Shown here: piece after piece, positions 6,996 to 58,396 of the stretch
How the letters are laid out: each line of letters starts with the position of its first letter
Numbering within the stretch: position 1 is the stretch's first letter
Source: Candidatus Electryonea clarkiae
GTDB lineage: Bacteria > Electryoneota > Electryoneia > Electryoneales > Electryoneaceae
Direction: 5' to 3'
Assembly (NCBI GenBank): GCA_030765455.1
Contig: JAVCCM010000101.1
Location: forward strand, 28,794-92,793
Length of the DNA stretch: 64,000 bases
Notes under the pieces: model-generated
The model's input: the letters and a program-made list of their open reading frames with translations, nothing else
Told to the model about the DNA's origin: nothing
The model's database searches: none
Made by a program: the position numbers and the translations under genes

Positions 6996-7159
6996 TGTGT
7001 TTCTCCTAATTTGAAATTTTCTTGCCTTGATGGTATTATGAGTATTATCTAAATAATATACATTTATTTACTTCTGTGGTTTCCAGCAATTCAGGAAAGC
7101 GAAAAGTTATTAACAGGATCTCGTGCAGTCAAATCTAAGTTGCGGTTTTTGCATAATAA

Positions 7160-7525
<366 letters not shown>

Positions 7526-7544
7526 TTAAAAATATAGACTGCCA

Positions 7545-8606
7545 TCAAACTGCGAAACGGACATGCATTATTTCTCCATCCTGAACGATATAATCTTTTC
7601 CTTCGAGACGCAACAGACCTTTGTCACGACATGCAGAAAAAGAACCAAGCTCTATGTAGTCATTTGAGTGCACAATCTCACCCCTGATAAATCCTCTTTC
7701 AAGGTCAGAGTGGATCTCACCCGCCGCATTTACTGCCTTTATCCCGGAGGGCACTGGCCAGGCTCGGACCTCATCGTCTCCAATAGTGAAGAAACTGATC
7801 AGGTTCAATAGTTCGAAACCAGTTTGAATAACTCGTTCTGAGGCTGGACTGTCGATTTTCATTTCTTTCAGGAAATCGTCTCGATCCTCCTCGTCAAGGA
7901 TTGCAATTTCAGATTCCAATTTAGCATTCACAATATCAAAACGCTTTTTTGTTCCGATTAATTTTCCTTCAAGTGCGTCTCTTAGAATTTCGATATCCTG
8001 ATCATCTGCGACATTTATAACGATAAGGTGAGGTTTCAAGGTCAGGAATGCAAAGGTGCGGATTATTTTGTCCTGTTCAGCTTCAAATGCAAGATTACGA
8101 AGGGGGATTTCCGAATTAAGAGAGTCAAGTATCTTTTTCAGGATATCAAGTTCAATTGCATTAGTTTTAAGTCCACGGTTCTGATTAGCATCTATGCGTT
8201 CGATACGATTTTCTGCTATCCCCATATCCGACAGCAGCAATTCATCCTCGATTTCTTTTACCTCCTCGAGGATTGTTTCAACAATACCTTCAATATCATC
8301 CCAGCCAAGATGAAATACACCAATCACGGTCACAAGTAATTGTGACCCTTGTAGATGGTTTATCATTGATCTTTTGAATCCGGTAATTTCCTCCGAATGT
8401 GCAAGACCGGCAATATCAAGGTAATCAACACGTGCTGCAATTTTTTTGGACGAGGGATAAAAAGTGTGAAGAGCATCGAGACGTTTATCCGGCACAAATG
8501 CAATACCCGAATGTGCCTGCTCACCAATGCTTGATTCCATACCTGTTAGGGCTGTATATAGAGTCGATTTCCCACTGCCCTGCCAACCGATTAATGCTAT
8601 TTGCAT
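7545..8606 (-). CDS. ychF: Ribosome-associated ATPase/GTPase YchF (Ola1 family)
   Basis: P-loop GWQGSGKST. C-terminal TGS-like RLEGKDYIVQDGEIMHVRFAV closely matches the YchF C-terminus. 353 aa. Confidence 0.85.
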   Translation of the reverse strand: MQIALIGWQGSGKSTLYTALTGMESSIGEQAHSGIAFVPDKRLDALHTFYPSSKKIAARVDYLDIAGLAHSEEITGFKRSMINHLQGSQLLVTVIGVFHLGWDDIEGIVETILEEVKEIEDELLLSDMGIAENRIERIDANQNRGLKTNAIELDILKKILDSLNSEIPLRNLAFEAEQDKIIRTFAFLTLKPHLIVINVADDQDIEILRDALEGKLIGTKKRFDIVNAKLESEIAILDEEDRDDFLKEMKIDSPASERVIQTGFELLNLISFFTIGDDEVRAWPVPSGIKAVNAAGEIHSDLERGFIRGEIVHSNDYIELGSFSACRDKGLLRLEGKDYIVQDGEIMHVRFAV

Positions 8607-8633
8607 AATATCATTTCTGTTAATTAGCGAACT

Positions 8634-9629
8634 TTACTCATCAAAAATTGATGATTGTACCGGTCGAATTTCTCTTTCGGAATATGCCTTATCCAATATG
8701 GTATTCAACGGTTCTTCCCAGGGAGGTTTCGGGAAGGGAAGAGTACCGAGTTTCAATAATTCGTAATTTCCTTTCGGGGCGTTCTCTTCATCGCGCACGA
8801 ACAGGGGGACAGGATTTTCTCGTTTCAATTCTTCTGTAGCTCCTGCCCAGGTGCCGCCACTTTTGTATTCTGCGCTGATAATCAGTCCATACCGGGATAA
8901 CGCATAGATATATTTATTTCTACTCATCGCGTTGCCAACCGTAAAACGAGCTTCAGGATTGAAAGAAGATACCAGCAACAACCGTTGATCGAGTATTGCT
9001 TCACGATATTTACCTGATACTGAAGTTCTTAACAAGCTGTCAGCCATTACTCCAATGGCAACTCCTTCAGCATCTAATGTGCTTTTCATTGAAATCTGAT
9101 CAACTCCCCGCGCTCCGCCTGATATAATTGCAATTCCACGATTTGCGCAATGCTCTCCTACTGCCCTGGTAAAGTCTTCGCCTCGTTTGTCAACGTTACG
9201 GGAACCTACCACAGCCAACCCGTCACAATCAAAAAGTGAACGATCACCAACACCATAAAGAATCGGAGGACTAAGTCTATTCAGATGTTTTCGCAATTTC
9301 CCAGGATAGTTCTTTTCGCTGCGCGTGATGATCCAAATCCCTTTATTCATCCATTTCTCGACAGCGAAAGCCAGCATTGCGCCTCGTATGAGTAAATTCT
9401 CCACTCGTTGAGGATCAATACTCCCCATAATATTTTGTTTTAACAGCTTGCGAACTTCCGTTTCGAGGAGATCGCCTGGACGCATATCATTATCCGCTAA
9501 CCATTTGGCAAGTTTATTATATTCAGCGATACTTAACGGTTTTACCGATTCACGATCTTCACGGCTGCCGAAAATACCGCATAATAATAATGTAGCTTTA
9601 CTGTCATCTGTCAGTTCATAAGTTTGCAT
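8634..9629 (-). CDS. DprA/Smf-family (SLOG Rossmann) DNA-processing protein
   Basis: LAVVGSRNVDKRGEDFTRAVGEHCANRGIAIISGGARGVDQISMKSTLDAEG...EYKSGGTWAGATEEL matches the DprA Rossmann domain. Starts 13 nt downstream of the helicase stop. Confidence 0.8.
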   Translation of the reverse strand: MQTYELTDDSKATLLLCGIFGSREDRESVKPLSIAEYNKLAKWLADNDMRPGDLLETEVRKLLKQNIMGSIDPQRVENLLIRGAMLAFAVEKWMNKGIWIITRSEKNYPGKLRKHLNRLSPPILYGVGDRSLFDCDGLAVVGSRNVDKRGEDFTRAVGEHCANRGIAIISGGARGVDQISMKSTLDAEGVAIGVMADSLLRTSVSGKYREAILDQRLLLVSSFNPEARFTVGNAMSRNKYIYALSRYGLIISAEYKSGGTWAGATEELKRENPVPLFVRDEENAPKGNYELLKLGTLPFPKPPWEEPLNTILDKAYSEREIRPVQSSIFDE

Positions 9630-9642
9630 GAATTCTGCCGTT

Positions 9643-11718
9643 TTAGCCTAATGAGTTTAATGCCAATGCCAGGGGAAATACTTCTTCACAACCATGCTGT
9701 TTTAATAAAGCGGAAAGTACGGTCATAGTCCACTGCGAATCTACCATATCATCAACCAGGAAAGCCGGAGCCTGCGGGATATTGTCTGCGATTTCGAAGA
9801 CGCCGTCAAGATTTCGAGCTTGCTGGACACTATTCTGCTTTGTTTTCTGTTCGGCATTCTGTTTTACTTTTTTAATACAATCAATAAATGGTATTCCAAG
9901 TCTCTCAGCCAACCGCCGGGCAAAACCGGGGACGAGTTCCGGGTGATTCAATGATGGTACACAAGTCAGCCAGTCAGGGTAAGGTTCCGGGTTCCATGAT
10001 TGAATCATCTCAACACAACCGTCAATCAGTTCATCCCCAAATCTGCGGTCGCGGTATTTACCATGTTGAACCATCTCGCCCCAGCCCGCATCACCCCATA
10101 ATGCCAACGCTCTACCCTCTTCAGCCCTGAGGTCTTCAGAAATGAGTCCCTTCCAACCATATATTTCAAATTGATAACTGGGGGGCCATCGTTTCCTCGG
10201 CTCAATCGCCTGATGACTCCGTCTCAGGAAAATTGCAGCCTTGTTTACCAGTTTCTCCGAGGGATATTCTGAAAGTAACGGTTCTCCACGACAACCTGCA
10301 CATTTTCCACATTCCCGGGCATTCGAATCGTCAAGGGCTTCAGCAAGGTATTTCATCAGGCAAGTGTTGGATTGCATATATTCGAGCATCTCAGCTTGTT
10401 CTTTATGCCTTAATTGACCAAGCTGCCTGATCTGTCCAACATCTAATTGATAATTAATCGGCGTACGAAACCATTTGCTTCCTTCTTTGAGAACGGGTGA
10501 GGGATCTTCAACCGATAACAGTTTCAGTACTTTACTAATATCGCCAAAAGTAAGGTTGATAGATTGCTGCATCATCCAGATTGACAATCCTTCTTCAGCG
10601 CCCTCCAATGCAGTCAGCACTTGTTCCACATGTATTTGAGGAGGGAAAGCAGTGCGGATAAAATAATCGGTTATCTCCTTGTCCTCTTCACCACTTAGCA
10701 AAATGCCATATGCTTCTTCTACAGCTCTTCCGGCACGACCTACCTGCTGATAGTAATGAACTACCGATCCCGGACGTTGGAAATGAATTACAAAACCAAG
10801 GTCGGGTTTGTCGAATCCCATCCCCAGGGCAACGGTGGCAACCAAAGCCTTTACATCATTGTTCAGGAGCATTCCTTCAAGAGCCGGTCGGTCTTCGACA
10901 TCCGAATGGTATGGCAGGACATTAATGCCATTCAACCTAAGCCATTCCGCAAGTCGTTCAGAATCTCTTTTAGTCAGGGTGTAAATAATACCGCTTCCCG
11001 GAATTTCAGGCAGGTTTTCTGTCAGCCATGCCATTCTGGAGGCAGGACTCCGAAGCCAGATATTCTGGAGTTTCAAACTTTCACGGATTAGAGGTCCGCG
11101 TACAATCTCCAGGTCGCCAAGTTGTCTTGCTACATCGTTTACGACACGATTATTTGCAGTTGCTGTAGTTGCAAGTACTGGAATATTAGATGGCAAGGCT
11201 TGGAGGATTCTGACAATCCGTTTGTAGTCCGGGCGGAAATCATGCCCCCAATCACTGATACAATGGGCTTCATCAACCACAAATAACCCGACCCGGTTTG
11301 CTATATGCTGGAGGACATTTTTACGGAATTTTTCATTTGCAAGCCGCTCGGGTGAAATCAGCAGTATATCGATTTCGCCCCTTGTCAGTCTTTGTTCGAT
11401 TTCATTCCATTCTTCGACATTACTGGAATTAATGGATTCAGCTACTATGCCTATTCTATTTGCAGCCTGTATCTGGTTACGCATGAGCGCTAAGAGAGGA
11501 GAAATGAGCAGGGTCAAGCCGTAACCTTGGTTGCGGAGTAATCGCGTCGCCAGAAAATATATCATGCTTTTACCCCAACCGGTACGCTGGACAACCAGCA
11601 TCCTTCTCCTATTCAAAAGAGCGCTAATACAATCCCATTGATTATTTCGAAATTCAGCGGTGGGTTGTCCCAATGCCTGACGTAACAATTGAAGGGCTTC
11701 TTGTCTCATATATAGCAT
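9643..11718 (-). CDS. RecQ-family SF2 DNA helicase fused to a C-terminal ComFC/PRTase-like domain (691 aa)
   Basis: RecQ motifs TGWGKS, LISPLLALMRNQ, DEAHCISDWGHDFRPDY and HYYQQVGRAGR. A Cys-rich segment CGKCAGC. C-terminal ~190 aa with ComF-like VPSLNHPELVPGFARRLAERLG...KQNSVQQARNLDGVFEI and the PRPP-loop-like AFLVDDMVDSQWT. Confidence 0.85.
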   Translation of the reverse strand: MLYMRQEALQLLRQALGQPTAEFRNNQWDCISALLNRRRMLVVQRTGWGKSMIYFLATRLLRNQGYGLTLLISPLLALMRNQIQAANRIGIVAESINSSNVEEWNEIEQRLTRGEIDILLISPERLANEKFRKNVLQHIANRVGLFVVDEAHCISDWGHDFRPDYKRIVRILQALPSNIPVLATTATANNRVVNDVARQLGDLEIVRGPLIRESLKLQNIWLRSPASRMAWLTENLPEIPGSGIIYTLTKRDSERLAEWLRLNGINVLPYHSDVEDRPALEGMLLNNDVKALVATVALGMGFDKPDLGFVIHFQRPGSVVHYYQQVGRAGRAVEEAYGILLSGEEDKEITDYFIRTAFPPQIHVEQVLTALEGAEEGLSIWMMQQSINLTFGDISKVLKLLSVEDPSPVLKEGSKWFRTPINYQLDVGQIRQLGQLRHKEQAEMLEYMQSNTCLMKYLAEALDDSNARECGKCAGCRGEPLLSEYPSEKLVNKAAIFLRRSHQAIEPRKRWPPSYQFEIYGWKGLISEDLRAEEGRALALWGDAGWGEMVQHGKYRDRRFGDELIDGCVEMIQSWNPEPYPDWLTCVPSLNHPELVPGFARRLAERLGIPFIDCIKKVKQNAEQKTKQNSVQQARNLDGVFEIADNIPQAPAFLVDDMVDSQWTMTVLSALLKQHGCEEVFPLALALNSLG

Positions 11719-11793
11719 CTCCTATATACTTCGGACATTGAATTTTGTTTTGTCTAAGGAAATCAGGTCTGAACATTTTGTGCAGAAATATAT

Positions 11794-12396
11794 TCAACTA
11801 TTTTGTTTATATTTTTCAGGTATAACATCGACAATTTTCAGGCGAGTTAATATTGCCGGTAGAAGCAGAGCGAAAATAAAACCATTTGAAATTAAATGAA
11901 TAGCGGCAAATGGCAGCCCTGCAATGATAAAAGGAACCCAACCTTTTCCCGGACCAATTCCAGTTGATATGGGGAAGGCAATAGTCGTAATTATATCAAA
12001 TAAGGCTGTGACAAAAATCCCGGCAACGAGACAAATTATAACTCTTTGGAGTATGTTGCCGCTTCCAATGGGTCGTCTCAAAAGCCCGAACAAAAACCCG
12101 TTTAAACCCTGACCGACCATTTGTGCGATCCAGACGGGTGGGAAAGGGATGCCCCATGCATTCAAACCGTTATAAATTATGACGGATAATATTCCGACCG
12201 TCAAACCGCCAATCGATCCAAGATATAATCCGGCAAGAGATATGACTACAGTGATCAACTCGACATTAGGTACAGCTATCAGTATGTATCCGCATACAAC
12301 AGCCATCGCGGTAAACAGGCTGATCTGTGCCAGTCTTTTGGATTTCAGCACATTTTCTAATGATGAATGTTTCGAGTTTATTGATCCTGGAGTCAT
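11794..12396 (-). CDS. Polytopic membrane protein, ECF-transporter S-component-like (about 6 TM helices)
   Basis: Hydrophobic profile only. The start overlaps the rplS stop and the true start may be internal. Confidence 0.45.
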
Positions 12397-12767
12397 GCCT
12401 TCGCTGAACGGCGCGGCGCGGTCTTTCGCTCTTTAATGCGCGCGGCTTTTCCGATGCGGTCTCTAAGATAATAAATCTTTGCACGGCGTACGGCGCCCAG
12501 GCGATCCACCTCGATTTTTGCAATGTTTGGAGAGTGAAGCGGAAAAACACGCTCTACGCCAATACCGCCTGAGATCTTGCGGACAGTAAAAGTTGCTTTA
12601 GCAGCTTTCCCTTTTCTCCCGATAACAACACCTTTAAAAAGCTGAATACGCTCTTTGCCCGCTTCTACAATGCGTACATGCACTTTGATTGTATCACCAG
12701 GACCAAAGTCAGGAATATCTTCACGTAAATCACGACGTTCCAATTCTTGAATAATTAAATCCGACAT
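12393..12767 (-). CDS. rplS: 50S ribosomal protein L19
   Basis: [30 protein letters not shown]...conserved L19 sequence. Confidence 0.95.
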
Positions 12768-12853
12768 CTTATCACCAAAATTAAGTTTGAAGTACGAAAA
12801 TGAAAGTAATGAATATAAATATTTCAGAGTTAAAATTTCTTGTTTTTAAATTA

Positions 12854-13555
12854 CTAATTTCTAATTCCTAATTGCTTTTCATATATGTCCGGTCTCAATT
12901 TTTTTGTTCTGTCAACAGCCTGTTTTTCTCGCCACTCATCAATTTTGGCATGATGTCCACTAAGCAGAACATCAGGCGCTTTGATTCCTTCCCATTCCGC
13001 AGGCTGGGTATAGTGAGGATGATCAAGCAATCCTCGAGTAAAACTGTCACCCATTGCAGAAGCCGCATCTCCCAACACTCCCGGCTGGAGGCGGATGATT
13101 GAGTCGGCTATGGCAACAGCGGGGATTTCGCCGCCGCTAAGGATATAGTCCCCAATGCTTATTTCAGTATCAATAAATTCGTCTATTGCTCTCTGATCAA
13201 GACCTTTATAATGACCACAAATTATTGTCAATCTTTGTTTTTTTGCTAATTCTTCTACCAAGTCCTGGTCAAGTTGTCTCCCCTGGGGACTGGTATAAAT
13301 AATATACGGCTCCGGCTCTGGACGTGTTTTTCTTAAATGACGAATGCAATTTGCAATGGGCTCTACTTTTAGAACCATTCCCGGTCCGCCACCCAATGGT
13401 TTGTCATCGACCGTATGATGTTTATCTGTCGCGAAATCCCTTAATTGAATCAATTCAATCTCAACTGCTTCAAATCGTTGAGCACGCGCCGGAATTGACT
13501 CGTTTAACATCGCCCTGATTCCATCAGGGAATAGTGTGATAATTTCAATCAGCAT
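12854..13555 (-). CDS. trmD: tRNA (guanine37-N1)-methyltransferase
   Basis: MLIEIITLFPDGI...YTSPQGR...SIGDYILSGGEIPA TrmD signature. Confidence 0.95.
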   Translation of the reverse strand: MLIEIITLFPDGIRAMLNESIPARAQRFEAVEIELIQLRDFATDKHHTVDDKPLGGGPGMVLKVEPIANCIRHLRKTRPEPEPYIIYTSPQGRQLDQDLVEELAKKQRLTIICGHYKGLDQRAIDEFIDTEISIGDYILSGGEIPAVAIADSIIRLQPGVLGDAASAMGDSFTRGLLDHPHYTQPAEWEGIKAPDVLLSGHHAKIDEWREKQAVDRTKKLRPDIYEKQLGIRN

Positions 13556-13561
13556 TTCTTT

Positions 13562-14116
13562 TCAATCAGGAACTTTATTCATATCAACAAGACCGTCAGG
13601 CAATATTACCTTAATCAATTTTGTTTTAATATCAACAGATTTTACAAATTCTTTGACAGCCGGTATCATCACTACGCCATGTTTTCCTTTGACAAGCCAG
13701 ATATCCTGGGCTGACTGGTCTAAGATTTCCTCGATTATTCCTATATTGCCATGAATTTCGCATTCTACCTTACACCCGACAAGATCATCTATGAAATACA
13801 TAGATTCAGGCAATTCATCCCGCTCAGTTACATCGACGAAAAGTTCGCCACCGATCAGGGGTTCAGCAAGCTCGCGTGTCGGACATTCATGCAACCGGAG
13901 ATAAGCCATGCCCCCTTCTGTCCGGCTTCTTTTGATTGCAAAGTATTTTAAATCTCCGCCTTCAAGCTGAATCCAAATTCCCTCCAGGAATTGAAATCTA
14001 TCCAGACTCCATGTCCAGGGAAGAATCTTCAGATCACCTCTTAATCCTCTGGTCTTGACAATCTTGCCCAGATATACCCGCCGGTCTGACGGGGGGGGTG
14101 TTCTATCAGCGTTCAA
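13562..14116 (-). CDS. rimM: 16S rRNA processing protein RimM
   Basis: LGKIVKTRGLRGDLKI...PRC-barrel C-terminus. Position between rpsP and trmD is canonical. Confidence 0.9.
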   Translation of the reverse strand: MNADRTPPPSDRRVYLGKIVKTRGLRGDLKILPWTWSLDRFQFLEGIWIQLEGGDLKYFAIKRSRTEGGMAYLRLHECPTRELAEPLIGGELFVDVTERDELPESMYFIDDLVGCKVECEIHGNIGIIEEILDQSAQDIWLVKGKHGVVMIPAVKEFVKSVDIKTKLIKVILPDGLVDMNKVPD

Positions 14117-14967
14117 GCCTTATCCGTTGAAGCGTCCTTCTTCTCCTTGTCTTCGGTCTTTTTCTTCTCTGCCGGTTTAGCAGTATCAGATTTTTCAGCT
14201 TTTTTCTTTGGAGAAGCTTTCTTTTCTGTTTTTTCCTTTGGCTTTTCCTCTGGTTCCGGAGCGGCTTCTTTTTTCTCGTCAACCTTTTTTGCGCTTTTCG
14301 CCTTTGGTTCAGCTTTTGGCTTTTCTTCAGTTTTTTTGGCTTCCGGTTCTTTTTCGACTGTCTTTTCAGCTTTTACTTCAGGCTTGTCCTTGTCGCTGGT
14401 TTCCTGCTTCTTCGCGGCTTTTTTCTTTTCCTTCTCAACCGGTACCTCTGCGACTTTTTCTTCTACCTTTGCTTCGACAGCTTTTTCCGCTTTTTTATCT
14501 TCTTTCTTTTCTATTTTTTCAGCGGGTTTTTCAGCCTTGGCGGGTTTCGCTTTTGCCTTTGGTTTCTTTTCTTTTTCCGGCTCCTCTTCAGGTGCTTTGA
14601 ATTCCGGAACCTCAGGTTTAGCCGGTTTTTCTTTGTTCAGAACGCCATAATGTTTCTCCTGGAGTTCCTTTACCGCTGCTTCGATTTTTTCAGCGTCATA
14701 TCCGCGTTTTGTCATATCCCAGCGAAGCATAACGCCTTCCCGCCTGAACAAACTTTTGACTGAATCAGAAGGCAAAGCGCCTCGATTGAGCCATTTCAAG
14801 GCGATTTCATGATCGACACTTACTTCACTCGGACGTGGTATCGGATCATAAAGACCAATTTTCTCTATATATGCTCCATCTCTTTTCTTGCGGCTGTCAA
14901 CCGCTACGATGCGATAATACGGACGTTTTTTCCGTCCCATACGTGAAAGCCTGATTTTTACTGCCAC
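14113..14967 (-). CDS. rpsP: 30S ribosomal protein S16 with a ~190 aa low-complexity K/E/A/P-rich C-terminal extension
   Basis: VAVKIRLSRMGRKKRPYYRIVAVDSRKKRDG matches the S16 N-terminus. GTG at 14967 with GGAG about 10 nt upstream is preferred over the upstream extension that would overlap ffh. The tail is KPAKAEKPAEKIEKKEDKK... Confidence 0.88.
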   Translation of the reverse strand: MAVKIRLSRMGRKKRPYYRIVAVDSRKKRDGAYIEKIGLYDPIPRPSEVSVDHEIALKWLNRGALPSDSVKSLFRREGVMLRWDMTKRGYDAEKIEAAVKELQEKHYGVLNKEKPAKPEVPEFKAPEEEPEKEKKPKAKAKPAKAEKPAEKIEKKEDKKAEKAVEAKVEEKVAEVPVEKEKKKAAKKQETSDKDKPEVKAEKTVEKEPEAKKTEEKPKAEPKAKSAKKVDEKKEAAPEPEEKPKEKTEKKASPKKKAEKSDTAKPAEKKKTEDKEKKDASTDKA

Positions 14968-14986
14968 TTGGTTTTTCTCCTTTAAT

Positions 14987-16312
14987 CTATCCGGGCATAG
15001 GACCAAAGCCAAAGGGTAAGCCTTTGCCTCCTTTGCCCATCCTTTTCATCATTTTTTTCATCTGTAAAAACTGGTTGAGCAGGCGGTTTACGTCCTGAAC
15101 TGATAATCCGCATCCTCTCGCAATACGTTTGCGCCTGCTGCCGTTAATAATTTGTGGTCGCCGGCGTTCATCGGGAGTCATTGAGAGAATAATCGCTTCA
15201 ACGTGTTTCATTTCGCTGGGATCTACCTCAACGCCCTTAAGTGCTTTGCTTGCTCCCGGTATCATTTGTAAGAGACCTTCCAAAGGTCCCATCTTATTGA
15301 TCTGGCGAAGTTGATCCAGAAAATCCTCAAGGTCGAACTGCGCCTTTTTGAATTTTATGGCGAGTTTTTCCGCCTCTTCAATATCTATTACTTCCTGAGC
15401 CTTCTCAACTAAAGATACTACATCACCCAGACCAAGGATACGGTTAGCCTGTCGGGCGGGATGAAATTCATCCAGATCTTCAAGTTTTTCACCGACTCCG
15501 ATAAAACGTATCGGTTGACCGGTAACCTCACGGATGCTAAGTGCTGCGCCTCCACGCGCGTCACCGTCCATTTTGGTCAGAATTATACCCGAAATGCCAA
15601 GTTGTTCGTTAAATGCTCTGGCTGAATTGACAGCATCCTGTCCGGTCATTCCGTCAGCAACGAATATAGTCTCAGCGGGTCGTAATTCCTCCTTTAGTTC
15701 AATTAACTCTGCCATCAGGGCATCGTCAACATGTAAACGCCCTGCAGTATCAACAATCAGGGTGTCAAGCCCGGTTAACTTTGCTTCCAGTTTTGCTTCC
15801 CTTGCAACAGTTAGCGGGGTTGAGCCCTGTTTTGCAATTACTTTAATTCCAGCTTGCTGGCCTAAAATTTCCAGTTGATCAACGGCAGCAGGACGTTGCA
15901 AGTCACACGCTGCCAACAAAGGTCGCATTCCATGTTTCTTCAGATAAACGCCGAGCTTGCCAACCGAAGTTGTCTTTCCGGCTCCTTGAAGACCTACCAT
16001 CAAATATACTGAAGGCGCCTCCTTGCTGCGCCGTAATTGAGACCAATTCCCACCGAGCAGCTCTACGAGTTCATCATGAATTATTTTTATCACCTGCTGC
16101 GACGGAGTGATGGATTTTAATACCTCTTCTCCGATGGCGCGAGTTTCAACTCTTTTGAGAAAGTCGCGGGCAACTTTAAAGTTAACGTCTGCTTCAAGCA
16201 AAATGCGACGTACTTCACGAAGCGCTGCCTTTACATCACTTTCTGTAAGCTTGCCTCGTCCGCGAAGTTTCTTAAAAAAGCCGTCGAGCTTATCTGTCAG
16301 TTCATTAAACAT
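14987..16312 (-). CDS. ffh: Signal recognition particle protein Ffh
   Basis: GLQGAGKTT, DTAGR, TKMDGDARGGAA and an M-domain with a Met-rich C-terminus. Confidence 0.95.
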   Translation of the reverse strand: MFNELTDKLDGFFKKLRGRGKLTESDVKAALREVRRILLEADVNFKVARDFLKRVETRAIGEEVLKSITPSQQVIKIIHDELVELLGGNWSQLRRSKEAPSVYLMVGLQGAGKTTSVGKLGVYLKKHGMRPLLAACDLQRPAAVDQLEILGQQAGIKVIAKQGSTPLTVAREAKLEAKLTGLDTLIVDTAGRLHVDDALMAELIELKEELRPAETIFVADGMTGQDAVNSARAFNEQLGISGIILTKMDGDARGGAALSIREVTGQPIRFIGVGEKLEDLDEFHPARQANRILGLGDVVSLVEKAQEVIDIEEAEKLAIKFKKAQFDLEDFLDQLRQINKMGPLEGLLQMIPGASKALKGVEVDPSEMKHVEAIILSMTPDERRRPQIINGSRRKRIARGCGLSVQDVNRLLNQFLQMKKMMKRMGKGGKGLPFGFGPMPG

Positions 16313-31370: not shown

Positions 31371-31797
31371 TCTGACTGATTGAAATTCAGCAGAAAGAAA
31401 AATACATTGGACCAACTCACATTTAATGCTGTGTTATTACTCGACTTGATCGAGTATTCCTTTGCTCTAACTTGTTGATAATGGTATATGCACGGGTCAT
31501 ACCTGAGAATGGCAAAACAGCTAGAGGCATGTGATCTGATCCACAATTTTTACAGTAATTTCGAGTAGATCGTTGTAAAATACGGATAGCTATGCCCACA
31601 TTTGAATAAATTGCTTATTTTCAAGGAGATTGTCAATAATTACTTGAAAATGCTATATCAGAAGATAGAAATATTATAGTCGAATTTTAAGCTTCATATA
31701 TTCTAAAGACAGTATAACCATTAAAATTCTTATAATAGTTTGTTTGTATTGTAAGATTTTGAACCTGAGTCAAAGATTGTTATTTTGGGATAATTTT

Positions 31798-33093
31798 ATG
31801 TCCATTTCAACAAAACATCAAATTGTTAACGGTGATAGCAGAAACATGTCAGAATTGGCTGACAATTCTGTAAATTTAATTATTACATCTCCTCCATATT
31901 GGCAACTGAAAGATTATGGGAATGATGAACAGATAGGCTATAATGATAGTTATGAAAATTATATAAACAATCTGAATTTAGTTTGGCAGGAAAGTTATCG
32001 AGTTTTAGATAACGGTTGCAGATTATGCATAAACATAGGTGATCAATTTGCACGAGCTGTTTATTATGGCAGATATAAAGTAATACCAATAAGAACAGAA
32101 ATCATAAAGTTCTGTGAAACTATTGGTTTAGATTATATGGGAGCAATAATATGGCAAAAAAGAACCACGACTAACACAACCGGTGGCGCAAGTGTGATGG
32201 GTAGTTTTCCATTTCCACGGAATGGGATTTTGTCAATTGATTATGAATTTATATTACTGTTTAAGAAACTCGGAAACCCCAAAAAACCAGATAAAGAATT
32301 AAAAGAGCAATCGAGACTCACGAAAGAGGAATGGAGGGAATATTTTTCGGGACATTGGTATTTTGGTGGTGTTAAGCAAGATGGTCATATGGCAATGTTT
32401 CCGGAAGAATTACCGCGACGATTAATTAAAATGTTCTCTTTTGTTGGTGATACTATTCTTGATCCATTTTTAGGTAGTGGCACAACATCCTTAGCTGCTA
32501 AAAACCTGGACAGAAATTCTGCTGGATATGAAATAAATTCTGAATTTATACCTTACATCAAGAAGAAATTGAATTTTGAACAACAGGATTTATTGCAGAC
32601 AGAGTATCAGTTTTTCACTCAAGAGAATGAAGATCATAGATTTGATGCAAGAATCAGTAATTTGCCATACATTTTTAAAGATACACATAAATTAGACAAA
32701 AAAATTGATCCTAAAAATCTACAATTTGGATCTAAAATTGACAAGAACTCTAATCAAAGAGAAGAATATTATAGTGTTAAAGATATTATTTCTACCGAGA
32801 ATTTTATGCTCAACAATGGACTTAGAATTCGATTATTAGGCATTAAAAGCAATGAAACACAAGATGGAAATGCAAGGGATTTTTTATTAAAGAAACTGAA
32901 AAATCAAAAAGTGTTTTTGAAATTTGATAAACTCAAACATGATTCCGAGAATAATCTATTCTGTTATTTATACCTGAAAAATAAGACTTTTATAAATGCT
33001 CACTTGATAAAAAATGGTTATGCAAAAGCAGACAGGGATATTGAATTCAAGTATAAAAATAAATTTATTGGATTGGAACAACATCATGGATAA
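31798..33093 (+). CDS. Beta-class DNA methyltransferase (SPPY motif: N4-cytosine or N6-adenine) with a C-terminal degenerate staphylococcal-nuclease-like domain
   Basis: Motif IV NLIITSPPY precedes motif I DTILDPFLGSGTT. Residues 300-432 align to the SNase fold (LRIRLLGIKSNE, ARDFLLKKLKNQKVFLKFDK, NLFCYLYLKNKTFINAHLIKNGYAKA) but lack the catalytic Asp and Arg residues. Start set at ATG 31798. Confidence 0.85.
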   Translation: MSISTKHQIVNGDSRNMSELADNSVNLIITSPPYWQLKDYGNDEQIGYNDSYENYINNLNLVWQESYRVLDNGCRLCINIGDQFARAVYYGRYKVIPIRTEIIKFCETIGLDYMGAIIWQKRTTTNTTGGASVMGSFPFPRNGILSIDYEFILLFKKLGNPKKPDKELKEQSRLTKEEWREYFSGHWYFGGVKQDGHMAMFPEELPRRLIKMFSFVGDTILDPFLGSGTTSLAAKNLDRNSAGYEINSEFIPYIKKKLNFEQQDLLQTEYQFFTQENEDHRFDARISNLPYIFKDTHKLDKKIDPKNLQFGSKIDKNSNQREEYYSVKDIISTENFMLNNGLRIRLLGIKSNETQDGNARDFLLKKLKNQKVFLKFDKLKHDSENNLFCYLYLKNKTFINAHLIKNGYAKADRDIEFKYKNKFIGLEQHHG

Positions 33094-33790
33094 GGAATGG
33101 ATCAAGGGAAACGAAGGTCGCAATCTCAAATTTAAGAGAGAAACCCTGTTAAATTATGGAATGAACAGATGGGGTTTGAATAAAGCTCACAGCGTAGGTT
33201 CTACATCTGAATTAATAAGAGCATGCACTCCTAGTTCTTTTGAAGATTGGGAAGGATTCTATTTTAAAAATGCCAGGCAAAAGAAAAAAGATGGCATTAA
33301 TATAACAAAGGAATACATAACAGGTTTAGGACAAACTCTATATATAAAATTGTCAGAAGTTATTCAGAATGAATTAGAATCAATACAAGAGGAAGAATGT
33401 ATTGACTATGCATACAACCTAATTCTAAACCGGACTTATGAAGGTTATAGAGCTGAAATTGATACTATCTACGGCCAATTAGAAGGCATTCTGAAAATAA
33501 AAATTGATCCAGCACCTGATAAATGGGATAGAACTTATAATGTTGATTTTTGCATTGAAGTAAAAGATCGGTTTATTGGAATACAAATTAAACCGATATC
33601 GACAGGAATTCCTTTAGACCATTATCAATGGGAAGAAATGCATCGTAAAAATCATGAAAGATTCTTTCATGATCAAGGTGGAAAAGTATTTTTCGTATTC
33701 TCTGTCAAATCAACTGGTAAAAAGAAAATAATTCATAATGTTGAAGTAATTGATGAGATTCAAAAAGAAATAGATAGATTGAGTAAATAA
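33086..33790 (+). CDS. Probable type II restriction endonuclease (PD-(D/E)xK)
   Basis: Start overlaps the MTase stop (ATGGATAA). Putative catalytic YNVDFCIEVKDRF (D...E-x-K). AT-rich, low-GC context. Confidence 0.55.
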   Translation: MDKEWIKGNEGRNLKFKRETLLNYGMNRWGLNKAHSVGSTSELIRACTPSSFEDWEGFYFKNARQKKKDGINITKEYITGLGQTLYIKLSEVIQNELESIQEEECIDYAYNLILNRTYEGYRAEIDTIYGQLEGILKIKIDPAPDKWDRTYNVDFCIEVKDRFIGIQIKPISTGIPLDHYQWEEMHRKNHERFFHDQGGKVFFVFSVKSTGKKKIIHNVEVIDEIQKEIDRLSK

Positions 33791-33794
33791 TTTG

Positions 33795-34058
33795 ATGAGT
33801 TCAGAAGCGCCTGGAATGAATATTTCAGAAGTTGAGGTAACAAATATTTCTGCTCATGGCATATGGGTGCTTGTGAGTGGTAAAGAATATTTCATGTCCT
33901 ACAAAGATTTTCCCTGGTTTGAAGAAGCGCCGGTGGGGAAAATAATTAATGTTGTTGAATTGTCTTCGGGTCATCTCTATTGGCGAGAGCTTGATATCGA
34001 TCTGAGTCTTGAGTCGATTAAACATCCGGAACGTTTTCCATTAATAACAAAGCTATAG
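33795..34058 (+). CDS. DUF2442-family small protein
   Basis: HGIWVLVSGKEYFMSYKDFPWFEEAPVGKIINVVELSSGHLYWRELDIDLSLESIKHPERFPL matches the DUF2442 consensus. No DUF4160 partner present. Confidence 0.6.
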   Translation: MSSEAPGMNISEVEVTNISAHGIWVLVSGKEYFMSYKDFPWFEEAPVGKIINVVELSSGHLYWRELDIDLSLESIKHPERFPLITKL

Positions 34059-34156: not shown

Positions 34157-36634
34157 TTAATATCTCGCTGTAAGTGTTACAAAATAATTCCGCTCCGCTC
34201 CGACGAAATAGAAATTCTCCCCTTCCCAGGAATCGTACCAGCCTGCTGTTTCGTATTCTTCATCGAGCAGGTTGTTTGCCCTGAATTTGATTTCCCATCC
34301 ACTCAAAGGAATATTTTCAGGAACTTTATATGACATACTCAAACCAAGAAGCGAGAAAGGATCAATTGTACGATCTTCATCCTCAGTATTATCGAGGTAT
34401 TGTTTGCCGACGTAACGCAAATTGATTCCAGGGACAAAACCCATCCAATAATAACTTACCCCGCCATGGAGCATGATACTTGGGAATAATGCGATATGAT
34501 TATCGGACAGATCGATTGTTTCAGTACCTATTGGATTCCAGTCATCATCATATAGTTGGTTATAGGTTAAATACTCAGTCAACCTGTCGTCTGAAATGGA
34601 AGCATTCAACCAAGCCTTGGTTTCACGTATAGGCTTCACAACCGCTTCGAATTCCAAGCCGCGATGAACCGATCTGTCAGCATTATCTTTAACCGGGGCA
34701 CCATCATTTACACCACCGTATGGAATAATCGCATTCTTATATTCCATCCAGTATGCGCCAAGCTTGAATTTGTACCAGTCAGCTTTGAACGATGTACCCA
34801 GCTCGAAATCAATTAATTGTTCAGGTTCTACAATCGGGCCAGACCATTCAATTCTTTCAACCTGACCCCCAGATCTGATCGTGTCCGGTGTATTAAATAG
34901 TGGATCTTTTCCCAGATCATCCGGACCTTGCCAAACATCCCAGTATTCATCGTTATACGGCGCACGATGCGTTAATCCAACACCTCCGAAAAGATTCAAT
35001 TCATTTGTCATATCGTAAGATAATCCGAATTTTGGATTTAGAAATGTGTAATTGATATTAAAAGCATTCAATTCCTCGTTCTGGAAATTTGCCATTGGAG
35101 TTTGCTTAAAAGAATATGTTTTGTGCCTGAACTCAAGGTCACCTATCAACCTCGTTTTGTCATTGAGACGATATAGATCATGAACGAACAATCCTGCCTG
35201 ACTAACCTGTCCGTTATAAGCATAATACTGATGCTGAGGCTCAGCTCCAGGTGGTAGTTGATCACCCCAGATCACATACCCGAAATGATCTCCCTGGTAC
35301 CACTGTAGATCACCGCCGACTTGAAGAGTATTCTTCTCCTGTTCCCAGATCAGTCTCGGAACCCAGCCCACATGATTTTTCTTCACCCATTTCTGGTTGA
35401 CCAAGTCTGTTTCTGTGATAGTGTCGGTAGGTGTATAAAACTCCTGGTAACCAAAATCCTCCAGGTCTTCACCTGATTTATACTGTTCGTAATATCCCTC
35501 GCCCCTGATATAAAACAGGCTGTTTTCGATCTGGATATTCGGATTCAGGGTGTAGCTGTGATGGAGTTCGTAATGAGGTTGATAGAAATTGTCAATTGTG
35601 TTTTCATAAGTATAAGGATTGTGTTTTCTGTTTTTGTTTATATCACTTTCTGCTGAAGCGTTCCAGGCAGCATGCGTTAATTCTGGTCCACCATAAACAT
35701 TTATCGTAAGTTTACTTCTCTGCCAGTATCTCGTTGCAGTCAGGAAATAACTCCATAACTCCACACCGCTCCTGTCACGATATCCGTCTGTCTGGATTCG
35801 GGAAAATCTGCCGTACATCCCATAGGTGTTGTTAATTAATCCTGAATTATATGCAAGTCCCCATTTCCTGGTATTAAAACTTCCTCCTCCAAAAGTTGCT
35901 TCAAGCTGAGGTTCCGCCAATTGCGGCGACAATGTAAGAAGGTTGATTGTCCCACCAAATCCTCCGGTGCCATACGGTGAGTAACCTACTCCACGCTGCA
36001 CCTGGGCATCCTCCAAATTAGCAGCGAGGTCTGGCATATCGACCCAGTAAACCTGTCCATCTTCGGGATCGTTGAGCGGAATATTATTTATTGTAACAGC
36101 AATACGGGTCTGATCGAATCCCCTGATCTTTACATTGGAATAGCCAATCCCATTACCGGCATCCGAATATGAATAAACCCCGGGAATAGATTCGAGCAAC
36201 ATCGGGATATCCTGTGCCCAATATGTTTCTCTCATTTGAATGCCAGACATATTTGAAAATGATGCAGGAGCTATTCCTTCAACTGCACGGCTTGCTGTAA
36301 TCACAACATCATCGGTGGAAATCAGGGCATGGGATAGCGAAAGTACAAAATCGGATATGTCACTCACCAGATTAACATTAATTTTATTAACATGATATCC
36401 AAGAAAACTCGCTGAAATTTTATAATTACCGGGATTGATACCATGGAAACTGAAAATACCGTTCTGATCTGTCACAGTACCTGTTCCGGTTCCTTCAATG
36501 ATAACATGAGCGCCTCTCAATGGTTTACCGGATGTTTTATCCCTGACCTCACCGGCGATGTCAAAAGCATAGGAAGAAATGACAAAGAATAAACACAAGA
36601 AGAGATAAAACAACAAAATTACGGTACGTTTCAT
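34157..36634 (-). CDS. TonB-dependent outer membrane receptor (CarboxypepD_reg + plug + barrel), probably for thiamine or a thiamine precursor
   Basis: Signal peptide MKRTVILLFYLFLCLFF. TonB box region. 825 aa barrel. TPP riboswitch in the 5' leader. Start ATG 36634 with a GAGGG RBS. Confidence 0.9.
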   Translation of the reverse strand: MKRTVILLFYLFLCLFFVISSYAFDIAGEVRDKTSGKPLRGAHVIIEGTGTGTVTDQNGIFSFHGINPGNYKISASFLGYHVNKINVNLVSDISDFVLSLSHALISTDDVVITASRAVEGIAPASFSNMSGIQMRETYWAQDIPMLLESIPGVYSYSDAGNGIGYSNVKIRGFDQTRIAVTINNIPLNDPEDGQVYWVDMPDLAANLEDAQVQRGVGYSPYGTGGFGGTINLLTLSPQLAEPQLEATFGGGSFNTRKWGLAYNSGLINNTYGMYGRFSRIQTDGYRDRSGVELWSYFLTATRYWQRSKLTINVYGGPELTHAAWNASAESDINKNRKHNPYTYENTIDNFYQPHYELHHSYTLNPNIQIENSLFYIRGEGYYEQYKSGEDLEDFGYQEFYTPTDTITETDLVNQKWVKKNHVGWVPRLIWEQEKNTLQVGGDLQWYQGDHFGYVIWGDQLPPGAEPQHQYYAYNGQVSQAGLFVHDLYRLNDKTRLIGDLEFRHKTYSFKQTPMANFQNEELNAFNINYTFLNPKFGLSYDMTNELNLFGGVGLTHRAPYNDEYWDVWQGPDDLGKDPLFNTPDTIRSGGQVERIEWSGPIVEPEQLIDFELGTSFKADWYKFKLGAYWMEYKNAIIPYGGVNDGAPVKDNADRSVHRGLEFEAVVKPIRETKAWLNASISDDRLTEYLTYNQLYDDDWNPIGTETIDLSDNHIALFPSIMLHGGVSYYWMGFVPGINLRYVGKQYLDNTEDEDRTIDPFSLLGLSMSYKVPENIPLSGWEIKFRANNLLDEEYETAGWYDSWEGENFYFVGAERNYFVTLTARY

Positions 36635-36690
36635 GTTACCCTCGAAAACCATGACCAATTTGAAAGTCGGGGGGTGAATAAACGGAAATA

Positions 36691-36709
36691 CCCGCCGGGG
36701 AGAGCGGGC
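36691..36709 (-). terminator. Putative expression-platform terminator hairpin of the TPP riboswitch (GCCCGCUCUCCCCGGCGGG followed by a U-rich tract)
   Basis: Hairpin plus UAUUUCCGUUUAUU on the minus strand, between the aptamer and the start codon. Confidence 0.35.
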
Positions 36710-36742
36710 AGAAAGGAGATAATCATGCAAAAGGAATAAATC

Positions 36743-36830
36743 GCCCTGTTTCCTACGCCAGCATTAACCGGATCAGGTTCCACGGGTGTATTCTCAGACT
36801 CGTCGTCGAGACGAACCACCCCGAAGCAGC
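36743..36830 (-). promoter_or_regulatory. TPP (THI-box) riboswitch aptamer
   Basis: Minus-strand RNA reads CUUCGGGGUGG...CUGAGAAUACACCCGUGGAACCUGAUCCGGUUAAUGCUGGCGUAGGAAACAGG. This matches the THI-box consensus (GGGGUG, CUGAGA, ACCC, GAACCUGAUC-GG-UAAUGCC/UGGCGUAGGGAA). Confidence 0.8.
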
Positions 36831-37072
36831 AATTTCAAGATAGATAAATTATACAAGAGGGTCAAGCAGGCGCAGAAATAATTGAGATGCATGATTATTT
36901 TGCATTAATGACAAGTAGGTAGATTGGTTAACGTTGTTCAAAAGTTACCTGGGATTGAATTTATGATGGCAAAAAATCTCTCAAGGATTGACATTATGTT
37001 GTTTAAAAGCTCCAGCGGAGCGAAATCATGTAGCACGGTGCGTAAGCGCCGGGAGGTGAAGTAATAATTATT

Positions 37073-43618: not shown

Positions 43619-43915
43619 CTTACGAAGTTAGGCACAAGTACGGTAGAAAAGAATTTTCAGTATTTGCTGTTTTAAATTGAACTTGTATTATGATAGATAT
43701 TCTTGCGGTAGTCTGTGTAATTGGCTTGTATAAGTAAAATATAAACAGGTCTGTAATTTGCTGTAACTATTGATTAAGGTATTCAGCAAATTCATTTCTG
43801 AGACTGGATTTGGATTTTCTTTGGAAATACTCTGGATATAAGGTTCAGGGGATTGGTAATATTATAGATAGGTCATTTAGTGAACATTTATTCTCAAAGA
43901 TACATGGGGCGAAAT

Positions 43916-45013: not shown

Positions 45014-45170
45014 TAAATTTTGTGTTGAGTTTTTGAGAAGATATCAAAAGGTAGAAAATTGAAACGACCCTGTTCTTTGGAAATCCTGGGGGGGTAGTTG
45101 TACCGGGGCTTCCAAACGATTCGGGGCAGAACAAGAGCAGCTTGACAACCTTAGGATTTATCACCCCGAT

Positions 45171-48368: not shown

Positions 48369-48470
48369 ATTATGAAAACGATTATAGAAAAAGAGTTTTA
48401 TGCAATAAACATAATATCGCATCTAATTCATGTCATCATTAGTACTGCGATTCATCTGATTCAGTGCGTT

Positions 48471-48554
48471 GTCATTCCTGCGAAGGCGGGAATCCAGAGA
48501 GCGAGCATTATTGTGAAATTGAACTTTCTGGATTCCCGCCTTCGCGGGAATGAC
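48471..48554. repeat. REP/MITE-like palindromic element: 27 bp arms GTCATTCCTGCGAAGGCGGGAATCCAG / CTGGATTCCCGCCTTCGCGGGAATGAC, 29 bp spacer
   Basis: Perfect inverted repeat. A second full copy at 53963..54039 and partial arms at 52983 and 53913. Translates to the artefactual peptides PAKAGIQ and SRLRGND. Confidence 0.75.
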
Positions 48555-48593
48555 ATCTCGATTGAGCGGAATTGGTGTACTATCACTGTTTCA

Positions 48594-51650: not shown

Positions 51651-51747
51651 TAGCCCGGACAGCTTGTGTCCGGGAAAGAAAGGTCTTGGATTCTTGATCC
51701 AGAATAATACTTAAAAGAATAATCCCGGACACAAGCTGTCCGGGCTA
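51651..51747. terminator. Compound palindrome directly after the stop codon: TAGCCCGGACAGCTTGTGTCCGGG ... CCCGGACACAAGCTGTCCGGGCTA. Each arm is itself a hairpin CCCGGACA-loop-TGTCCGGG
   Basis: Read directly from the sequence. Belongs to the same CCGGGACA hairpin family as 53814 and 61220. Confidence 0.5.
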
Positions 51748-51809
51748 CAAAAAGATATTTTATAAGCTTCAATTTTTAGTTTGATTTCCGGTTTTACCTG
51801 GAGGTAGAG

Positions 51810-52886: not shown

Positions 52887-52995
52887 ACAAACTCTTGCTT
52901 TCAATAAATAAATGCCAATGCCTGTTAAACATTTGAATATATACTTGAACAGTACACACACTCAGAGCAATCGAAGTGTCATTCCCGCGAATCCG

Positions 52996-53700: not shown

Positions 53701-53739
53701 AGAAATAGACCGGGGAACCATATGCCTGACCTGAAAAAG

Positions 53740-53886: not shown

Positions 53887-53962
53887 ATACACCAATTCAG
53901 ATCAATCGAGTTGTCATTCCCGGGAAGTAGGCTGTCCGAGAATGCAATAATCAGCCAAGAAT

Positions 53963-58371: not shown

Positions 58372-58396
58372 TCTAAGAGGAACTGGAGTTATTTAA

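What the first reader, a model, noticed from the sequence alone, without database searches (positions are those of the whole stretch)
8634..11718. RecQ-family helicase fused to a ComFC-like PRTase domain, adjacent to a DprA/Smf protein: a ComFA-ComFC-DprA-like DNA-processing module or conflict system
Seen in sequence: ORF 9643..11718 has all RecQ signature motifs and then about 190 extra C-terminal residues with the ComF/PRTase-like signatures VPSLNHPELVPGFARRLAERLG, KQNSVQQARNLDGVFEI and AFLVDDMVDSQWT. A DprA Rossmann-fold gene starts 13 nt downstream. Both are co-directional with ychF, glnB and glnA. Established: in Gram-positive transformation the helicase ComFA, the PRTase-like ComFC and DprA act together to import ssDNA and load RecA. 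SLOG/DprA-like domains also occur in helicase-associated conflict systems. Inference: this fused two-gene cassette is a non-canonical arrangement, either for DNA uptake or repair or an uncharacterised defence module.
Basis: partly seen in the sequence, partly recalled or inferred. Interest (0 to 1): 0.75.

Follow-up and report, generated by a model that had tools for sequence, protein, structure and literature searches.

The report
Known PsyrTA (RqlHI) toxin–antitoxin defence pair
The two genes are a clear member of the already described PsyrTA/RqlHI toxin–antitoxin and anti-phage system (a RecQ-like helicase fused to a ComF-like phosphoribosyltransferase toxin, plus a DprA-like antitoxin), so the sequence observation is right but the module is not new.

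Summary
Two intact co-directional minus-strand genes lie 13 nt apart. [quoted passage not shown] The other (8634..9629, 331 aa) is DprA-like.

The module is not uncharacterised. Both proteins match the PADLOC models PsyrT (969 bits, full length) and PsyrA (392 bits). They are 52% and 41% identical to the E. coli RqlH/RqlI locus. PsyrTA/RqlHI is a published toxin–antitoxin pair and anti-phage system.

Neither gene reaches the NCBIfam cut-off for housekeeping RecQ (301 vs 640 bits) or canonical DprA (104 vs 191 bits).

The source is a MAG of Candidatus Electryonea clarkiae. Three related contigs keep the ffh–rpsP–rimM–trmD–rplS–ECF … ychF–glnB–glnA–dapA order but carry an HD-GYP-like gene in this slot, so psyrTA is an accessory acquisition.

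The only local peculiarity is a short antitoxin lacking the C-terminal HTH, which experiments showed to be dispensable.

Verdict: new member of a known kind, low interest.

The parts
9643..11718 (-). psyrT / rqlH: toxin gene for a RecQ-like SF2 helicase fused to a ComF-like PRTase. Layout: helicase about residues 1-350, linker, 4-Cys RecQ-type zinc module 438-477, PRTase domain about 497-691. The likely true start is Met4 at 11709 (688 aa).
9646..10230 (-). Part of psyrT encoding the C-terminal ComF-like PRTase domain (residues 497-691). Its PRPP-loop motif is VDDMVDSQWT (D656, D657, D660). D657 corresponds to E. coli RqlH D663, which is needed for toxicity.
   Evidence: The mutational data are in PMC4670107.
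8634..9629 (-). psyrA / rqlI: DprA-like (SLOG/Rossmann) antitoxin gene, short form without the C-terminal HTH.
   Evidence: PADLOC PsyrA scores 392.4 bits, E 6.1e-118, matching profile positions 3-323 of 398. Pfam DNA_processg_A scores 127.7 bits. It is 41% identical over 291 aa to the E. coli RqlI-type protein. The GSR Arg144 and SRN Arg237 align with the ssDNA-binding arginines of H. pylori DprA and ShosA (PMC12961424).
9630..9642 (-). 13-nt spacer between psyrT and psyrA. The close spacing fits an operon-like arrangement with the toxin gene first.
   Evidence: The same order and tight spacing occur in 53 of 73 related loci and are described for rqlHI (PMC4670107).

Best explanation
This is a PsyrTA (RqlHI) two-gene toxin-antitoxin and anti-phage cassette on the chromosome of Candidatus Electryonea clarkiae.

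Shown here:
- PsyrT is a RecQ-like 3'-5' helicase-type protein with intact ATPase motifs and zinc module, fused to a ComFC-like PRTase domain with an intact Asp-Asp PRPP loop.
- The cassette is an accessory insertion in an otherwise conserved housekeeping gene array.

Inferred from characterised relatives:
- The PRTase domain is the toxic part. It depends on the PRPP pocket and causes DNA damage, SOS induction and filamentation.
- The helicase domain and the co-expressed PsyrA hold it in check through direct binding.
- Phage infection, most plausibly through ssDNA or replication intermediates or loss of the antitoxin, frees the toxin. That stops DNA replication in the infected cell, an abortive-infection type of defence.

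The chemical reaction of the PsyrT PRTase and the trigger are not known for any member of the family.
For: Family membership:
- Full-length, very strong matches to both PADLOC models.
- 52% and 41% identity to the E. coli locus, whose RecQ-family product is 698 aa, the length the paper gives for RqlH.
- Conserved K50, D149, the four zinc cysteines, and D656/D657/D660.

Not the housekeeping genes:
- RecQ equivalog 301 bits against a 640.2 cut-off, and no match beyond position 344 of the 591-position RecQ model, where its C-terminal domains lie.
- DprA equivalog 104 bits against a 191.15 cut-off.

Gene pair conservation:
- A DprA-like gene lies directly downstream in 53 of 73 genome loci from many phyla. 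It is absent mainly in Actinomycetota. This matches the published distribution.

Accessory nature:
- Three related contigs have the same 10-gene synteny but a different gene in the slot.
- The closest homologues (about 70% identity) sit in unrelated neighbourhoods.
- Only 1656 of 5426 complete E. coli genomes have a DNA-level match to the pair.
- Four IMG/VR viral contigs carry both genes.

Function, from the literature:
- Helicase biochemistry: PMC3378886.
- PRTase-dependent toxicity, neutralisation by RqlI and physical interaction: PMC4670107.
- Phage resistance, and psyrA could not be deleted: 10.1101/2022.05.11.491447.
Against: - No experiment exists for this organism or for this short-antitoxin form.
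- The native E. coli PsyrTA of strain NILS69 gave no detectable protection against the phages tested when expressed in K-12 (10.1101/2024.12.20.629700), so defence is phage-specific or conditional.
- The cassette has no compositional anomaly and no flanking mobility genes.
- It is not in a defence island. The nearest other defence genes, an R-M pair, are about 20 kb away.
- It sits tightly packed among translation and nitrogen genes and may be co-transcribed with them. That would also fit a domesticated role.
- Solo RqlH in Actinomycetota shows that the helicase-PRTase protein can exist without an antitoxin.
Confidence: 0.85

Rival explanations
1. A housekeeping or domesticated DNA-repair module. 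PsyrT would act as the cell's RecQ-like repair helicase, as proposed for solo RqlH in mycobacteria, and the DprA-like partner would act as a RecA-loading or regulatory cofactor. In this reading it is not primarily a defence or toxin-antitoxin system.
For: - RqlH is an active 3'-5' DNA helicase, and mycobacteria that have it lack classical RecQ (PMC3378886).
- No canonical recQ is present in this 64-kb window.
- The cassette is embedded co-directionally in a housekeeping array with very short spacers and has the same G+C as its surroundings.
- The related ShosA antitoxin acts through RecA and ssDNA (PMC12961424).
Against: - The cassette is absent from the same syntenic slot in the three closest relatives found. 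Presence/absence at one site is typical of accessory genes.
- Its closest homologues sit in unrelated contexts.
- In E. coli the helicase-PRTase protein is genotoxic without its partner, rather than protective (PMC4670107).
- The rest of the genome could not be searched for recQ or dprA, so their absence from the window says little.
Confidence: 0.08
2. A DNA-uptake or competence module analogous to ComFA-ComFC-DprA. The helicase would pull in ssDNA, the ComFC-like domain would hand it over, and the DprA-like protein would load RecA.
For: - Its best NCBIfam families are GntX and ComF.
- ComFC binds ssDNA and interacts with DprA in C. jejuni and S. pneumoniae (PMC9005727).
- PsyrA keeps the DprA ssDNA-binding arginines.
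Against: - The scores are far below the ComF and DprA family cut-offs (24.5 vs 233.55 bits; 104 vs 191.15 bits).
- The helicase is of the RecQ clade, not ComFA.
- No comEC, comEA or pilus genes are in the window.
- The same pair occurs in about 30% of E. coli genomes. There it behaves as a toxin-antitoxin pair and not as a transformation factor (PMC4670107).
- The pair also occurs on viral contigs.
Confidence: 0.03
3. An inactive remnant: a decaying toxin-antitoxin cassette whose antitoxin has lost its C-terminal domain and which no longer functions.
For: PsyrA is 331 aa and matches only positions 3-323 of the 398-position PADLOC profile. E. coli RqlI is 400 aa.
Against: - Both ORFs are uninterrupted, and every residue that is invariant in the family is kept.
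- Short partners recur in 16 of 52 paired loci, including the closest homologues at 336-342 aa.
- A truncated RqlI (1-320) fully neutralises RqlH (PMC4670107).
Confidence: 0.04

Closest known systems
PsyrTA / RqlHI toxin-antitoxin and anti-phage system (P. syringae PsyrTA; E. coli F11 RqlH/RqlI; M. smegmatis RqlH)
   Same: The architecture is the same: a helicase-Zn-PRTase protein of about 690 aa. The gene order is the same, toxin first with a DprA-like gene directly downstream. Both PADLOC models match over the full length. Identity to the E. coli proteins is 52% and 41%. The helicase residues (K50, D149) and the PRPP-loop residues (D656/D657/D660) are conserved.
   Different: The antitoxin is a short form (331 aa) without the C-terminal HTH of RqlI (400 aa). 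The host is a candidate phylum (Ca. Electryoneota). The cassette lies inside a ribosomal-protein / ychF / glnBA array, whereas in E. coli it lies between gntU and yhgN.
ShosTA (PRTase-pyrophosphatase toxin ShosT + DprA-like antitoxin ShosA)
   Different: ShosT has no helicase and carries a pyrophosphatase domain. ShosA does not bind ShosT directly, whereas RqlI binds RqlH. PsyrA scores far higher on the PsyrA model (392 bits) than on the ShosA model (98 bits).
ComFC (ComF) with DprA in natural transformation
   Different: ComFC is a stand-alone, membrane-associated protein of about 190-250 aa that works with ComEC/ComFA. Here the domain is fused to a RecQ-like helicase. Sequence scores are far below the ComF family cut-off. 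The PRPP loop reads DDMVDSQWT rather than DDIITTGTT. No competence genes lie nearby.
Bacterial RecQ (housekeeping)
   Same: It shares the SF2 helicase core and the Cx16CxxCxxC zinc-binding spacing. The best PDB sequence hits are RecQ cores (4q47, 1oyw; E about 1e-54).
   Different: It matches only positions 3-344 of the 591-position RecQ equivalog model, so the C-terminal part of RecQ (which includes the HRDC domain) is not matched, and it scores 301 bits against a 640-bit cut-off. A linker of about 90 aa separates the ATPase domain from the zinc module. A PRTase domain takes the place of RecQ's C-terminal domains.
DpdF helicase of the Dpd (7-deazaguanine DNA modification) system
   Same: The helicase core gives PADLOC and NCBIfam DpdF matches (up to 309 bits).
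   Different: The match covers only the helicase region and is much weaker than the PsyrT match. No other dpd genes are present. The NCBIfam DpdF score is 150.8 bits against a 550-bit cut-off.

Membership tests
PsyrTA / RqlHI | The toxin is a protein of about 690 aa with a RecQ-like SF2 helicase, a 4-Cys zinc module and a C-terminal PRTase domain. | tested here: met
   PADLOC PsyrT 969 bits, full length. Pfam and NCBIfam domains. Motifs. PRTase fold.
PsyrTA / RqlHI | A DprA-like partner gene lies immediately downstream on the same strand. | tested here: met
   13-nt spacer. PADLOC PsyrA 392 bits. The same arrangement is found in 53 of 73 related loci.
PsyrTA / RqlHI | The residues shown by mutation to matter are conserved: helicase K49/D148 and PRPP-pocket D663 (E. 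coli numbering). | tested here: met
   K50, D149 and D656-D657 (VDDMVD) are present and invariant in alignment A1. The mutational data are in PMC4670107.
PsyrTA / RqlHI | The antitoxin has a C-terminal helix-turn-helix domain, as in E. coli RqlI. | tested here: not met
   PsyrA ends at profile position 323 of 398. 16 of 52 partners are likewise short. RqlI 1-320 is fully active, so this domain is not defining for function.
PsyrTA / RqlHI | The toxin is toxic alone, is neutralised by the partner, and the pair protects against phage. | not testable with these tools
   This needs cloning and expression plus plaque assays.
Housekeeping RecQ (TIGR01389) | Reaches the equivalog score and has RecQ's C-terminal domains (including HRDC). 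| tested here: not met
   301 bits against a 640.2 cut-off. Only model positions 3-344 of 591 match. No match to the C-terminal part of the RecQ model was found, and no HRDC family appears in the Pfam results.
Canonical DprA (TIGR00732 / PRK10736) | Reaches the equivalog score. | tested here: not met
   104 bits against 191.15, and 75.8 bits against 495. The Pfam DprA domain itself is present at 127.7 bits.
ComF / ComFC family (TIGR00201) | A stand-alone 4-Cys + PRT protein that reaches the family score. | tested here: not met
ComF / ComFC family (TIGR00201) | Works with ComEC/ComFA at the membrane in DNA uptake. | not testable with these tools
   No comEC/comEA/comFA-like genes are in the 64-kb window. 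The rest of the genome was not available.
ShosTA | The toxin is a PRTase plus pyrophosphatase without a helicase. The antitoxin fits the ShosA model best. | tested here: not met
   No ShosT model is among the best 25 of 35 PADLOC matches listed for PsyrT. For the antitoxin, ShosA scores 98 bits against 392 bits for PsyrA.
Dpd system (DpdF) | DpdF reaches the equivalog score and lies in a dpd gene cluster. | tested here: not met
   150.8 bits against a 550 cut-off. The neighbours are rplS, an ECF S-component and ychF.

The most novel reading that the evidence does not exclude
The strong ComFC-like fold of the toxin domain, together with a DprA-like partner that keeps its ssDNA-binding arginines, could mean that PsyrTA is an exapted copy of the ComFC-DprA ssDNA hand-off used in transformation. 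In that reading, the PRTase-like domain acts as an ssDNA/PRPP-binding sensor-effector riding on a 3'-5' helicase, not as a metabolic PRTase. The DprA-like protein would release it when phage ssDNA or RecA filaments appear. The naturally HTH-less antitoxin seen here would be the minimal working form.
Probability: 0.2. Interest if true: 0.5.

Novelty: new member of a known kind. Interest (0 to 1): 0.15.

Why it matters
For genome annotation, public records name these genes 'RecQ family ATP-dependent DNA helicase' and (in the E. coli records) 'DNA-processing protein DprA'. That wrongly suggests housekeeping repair and competence functions. They should be labelled PsyrT/RqlH and PsyrA/RqlI.

Biologically, the locus extends PsyrTA to a candidate FCB-group phylum. 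It also gives a clean presence/absence case at one syntenic site.

The biochemical activity of the PsyrT PRTase domain and the trigger of the system are still unknown for the whole family. The clear ComFC-like fold and the minimal, HTH-less antitoxin may help to design experiments. These are family-level points, though, and do not make this locus new.

Tried and rejected
- A first AlphaFold2 run on the full-length protein without an alignment gave an unusable model (pLDDT 35.4). It was discarded and replaced by a domain model built with a 23-sequence alignment.
- The promoter/terminator scan of 7000-13000 found no more sites than shuffled sequence, so nothing can be said about transcription units.
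- No tRNA genes and no compositional anomaly mark the cassette as an island. Direct repeats were not searched for.
- One look-up of a window protein (48372-51650) found no record, and another returned only a 3.5-kb contig. The right half of the window was therefore annotated with Pfam instead.
- The DpdF, Cas3-like and BrxH PADLOC matches were rejected as helicase-core cross-hits.
- A profile search of the PDB with the C-terminal domain did not recover ComFC by sequence. Only the fold comparison did.
Full report
**Observation**

The region holds two intact minus-strand ORFs: 9643..11718 (691 aa) and 8634..9629 (331 aa), separated by 13 nt. They are co-directional with ychF (7545..8606), glnB and glnA on one side. 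On the other side lie an ECF-transporter S-component, rplS, trmD, rimM, rpsP and ffh.

The larger protein has these features:
- DEAD and Helicase_C domains, and it passes the NCBIfam RecQ-family subfamily cut-off (248.5 vs 219.8 bits).
- Walker A GWGKS (K50) and DEAH (D149).
- Four cysteines at 453/470/473/476, spaced Cx16CxxCxxC.

The gene probably starts at Met4 (11709). AGGAG lies 9 nt upstream of it (sequence), public gene calls give 688 aa, and Met4 is invariant among homologues.

**Is the C-terminal domain a ComF-like PRTase?**

Yes. The evidence comes from sequence and from fold.
- In the whole protein, Pfam Pribosyltran falls just short of its cut-off (24.1 vs 26.3 bits). As an isolated domain it passes (26.7 bits), and 8 of 13 homologous domains match.
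- A 13-sequence profile of the domain finds only type I PRTases among PDB sequences (PRPP synthetase, E 4.9e-7).
- In NCBIfam the most often matched families are GntX (9 of 13) and ComF (8 of 13). Scores are far below the family cut-offs (24.5 vs 233.55 bits).
- An AlphaFold2 model of residues 497-691, built with 23 sequences, is confident (pLDDT 88.9, pTM 0.88).
- Foldseek returns only PRTases. The highest query-normalised TM-scores are ShosT (0.55) and H. pylori ComF (0.52).

**What it is**

Both proteins match named models in PADLOC over their full length:
- PsyrT: 969.3 bits, E 2.6e-292, residues 3-689 against profile positions 3-685 of 689.
- PsyrA: 392.4 bits, E 6.1e-118.

A DNA-level search hits an E. 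coli locus annotated 'RecQ family helicase | DprA' in 1656 of 5426 complete genomes. In the example fetched, the pair lies between gntU and yhgN, and the helicase product is 698 aa. That is the length reported for RqlH of strain F11. The window proteins are 52% identical to it over 691 aa and 41% identical to its partner over 291 aa.

The literature on this pair reads as follows:
- The P. syringae orthologues PsyrT/PsyrA behave as toxin and antitoxin (Sberro 2013, as cited in PMC4670107).
- E. coli RqlH induces SOS, filamentation and growth arrest unless RqlI is present. Toxicity needs the PRTase domain and its PRPP-pocket residue D663. The two proteins interact (PMC4670107).
- PsyrTA confers phage resistance, and psyrA could not be deleted (10.1101/2022.05.11.491447).

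The residue equivalent to D663 is D657 in the motif VDDMVD. K50, D149, D656, D657 and D660 are all invariant in the alignment of 12 homologues.

**What it is not**

- It is not the housekeeping RecQ. The equivalog model scores 301 bits against a 640.2 cut-off and matches only positions 3-344 of 591, so RecQ's C-terminal part (which includes the HRDC domain) is not matched.
- The partner is not canonical DprA (104 vs 191.15 bits). It does have the DprA Pfam domain (127.7 bits). It also keeps the GSR and SRN arginines (R144, R237), which align with the ssDNA-binding arginines of H. pylori DprA and ShosA (PMC12961424).
- The DpdF, BrxH and Cas3-like PADLOC matches are cross-hits on the helicase core.
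- The window holds no recQ, dprA, comEC/comEA or pilus genes.

**Conservation of the pair**

A scan of one genome per species returned 80 loci with full-length PsyrT homologues (42-66% identity). They come from many bacterial phyla and one archaeon.
- Of 73 loci with at least 1 kb of downstream DNA, 53 have a DprA-like gene directly downstream on the same strand.
- The 20 without it are mostly Actinomycetota. This reproduces the published pattern of paired genes in Gram-negatives and solo rqlH in Gram-positives.
- Of 52 partners that could be measured, 36 carry a C-terminal extension of about 50-165 aa, and 16 are short like the one here.
- The partners of the closest metagenomic homologues (about 70% identity) are also short, at 342 and 336 aa.
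- A truncated RqlI (1-320) lacking the HTH fully neutralises RqlH. The short form is therefore expected to work.

**Origin and context**

The 100%-identical protein is recorded for a MAG of Candidatus Electryonea clarkiae, which belongs to the FCB group, phylum Ca. Electryoneota.

A metagenome scan with the neighbouring YchF found three related contigs (YchF 54-57% identical, GlnA 76-82%). They keep the order (ffh-rpsP-rimM-)trmD-rplS-ECF_S-[slot]-ychF-glnB-glnA-dapA; ffh, rpsP and rimM are seen in L119 and L120, and L121 begins within trmD. In all three, the slot holds one gene of 386-427 aa that reads as HD-GYP-like from its motifs; no domain search was run on it. None of them has psyrTA. 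The window has no homologue of that gene.

The closest PsyrT homologues lie in unrelated neighbourhoods, and four IMG/VR viral contigs carry both genes. PsyrTA is therefore a horizontally acquired accessory cassette in this lineage.

It shows no G+C anomaly and has no flanking mobility genes or tRNA. The nearest other defence genes are about 20 kb away: a methyltransferase-SNase fusion and an MjaI-like endonuclease in a 32% G+C patch.

**Mechanism**

Shown here are the architecture, the intact catalytic and ligand-binding motifs, the tight toxin-first gene pair and the accessory status.

Inferred from relatives:
- The ComF-like PRTase domain is the toxic effector and depends on PRPP binding.
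- The helicase domain and bound PsyrA restrain it.
- Infection relieves the restraint and blocks DNA replication.

The related ShosTA system offers a model. There a PRTase toxin disturbs purine metabolism, and a DprA-like antitoxin acts through ssDNA and RecA (PMC11961720; PMC12961424).

PsyrT differs from ShosT in having a helicase and in binding its antitoxin directly. Its substrate and trigger are unknown.

One caution applies. A native E. coli PsyrTA gave no protection against the phages tested in one study.

**Verdict**

The module, however, is the already described PsyrTA/RqlHI system and not an uncharacterised or competence-type arrangement. It is a new member of a known kind, and interest is low.

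Noticed in passing
window 31744-34058 (+): A low-G+C patch (32% against about 43%) carries a type II restriction-modification pair. The N6/N4 DNA methyltransferase is fused to a staphylococcal-nuclease domain (31744/31798-33093). It is followed by an MjaI-like endonuclease (33014/33086-33790) and a DUF2442 gene (33795-34058). This looks like a separate horizontally acquired defence element.
   Followed up: partly
window 36732-36833 (-): A TPP riboswitch (Rfam RF00059, 58.9 bits against a 54.3-bit threshold) lies directly upstream of a TonB-dependent receptor gene (34157-36730, minus strand). This suggests thiamine-regulated outer-membrane uptake.
   Followed up: no
window 14113-15012 (-): The rpsP (ribosomal protein S16) ORF carries a Lys/Glu/Ala/Pro-rich C-terminal tail of about 200 aa, far longer than a typical S16. 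The antisense strand gives long spurious ORFs over the same low-complexity stretch.
   Followed up: no
window 11709-11718 (-): The first-in-frame ATG of psyrT directly abuts the AGGAG. The second ATG (Met4, 11709) has the better spacing, is the start used in public gene calls (688 aa), and is invariant among homologues.
   Followed up: yes
L119 6688-7848, L120 6510-7793, L121 1701-2978: In three related contigs with the same housekeeping synteny, the slot occupied by psyrTA in the window holds a gene of 386-427 aa with HD...HHE..DG.GYP motifs (HD-GYP-like, read by eye). The window has no homologue of it.
   Followed up: partly
L064 6001-8040 (Halorubrum cibi): An archaeal (haloarchaeon) genome encodes a full-length PsyrT homologue (46% identity) without a DprA-like neighbour. 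Its PRPP loop reads Asp-Glu (VDETVNS) instead of Asp-Asp.
   Followed up: no
L050 5046-5996 (Chloroflexota MAG): Here a DprA-like gene lies immediately upstream of the psyrT homologue instead of downstream. The literature describes the toxin-first order as invariant.
   Followed up: no
L087, L089, L090, L091 (IMG/VR contigs): Both psyrT and psyrA homologues (full-length psyrT; psyrA matched over about 290-300 residues) occur on contigs classed as viral, so the cassette may also travel on prophages or phage-like elements. The phage nature of these contigs was not checked.
   Followed up: partly
window 39719-54908: A cluster of type IX secretion-related genes: a C25 (gingipain-like) peptidase of 1299 aa, PorV, and several proteins with Por_Secre_tail sorting domains. 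This fits the FCB-group origin.
   Followed up: no
window 55678-61083 (+): A higher-G+C stretch (about 50%) encodes a molybdopterin oxidoreductase, a 4Fe-4S subunit, an NrfD-type membrane subunit and FdhD. It resembles a polysulfide/thiosulfate-reductase-like respiratory complex.
   Followed up: no
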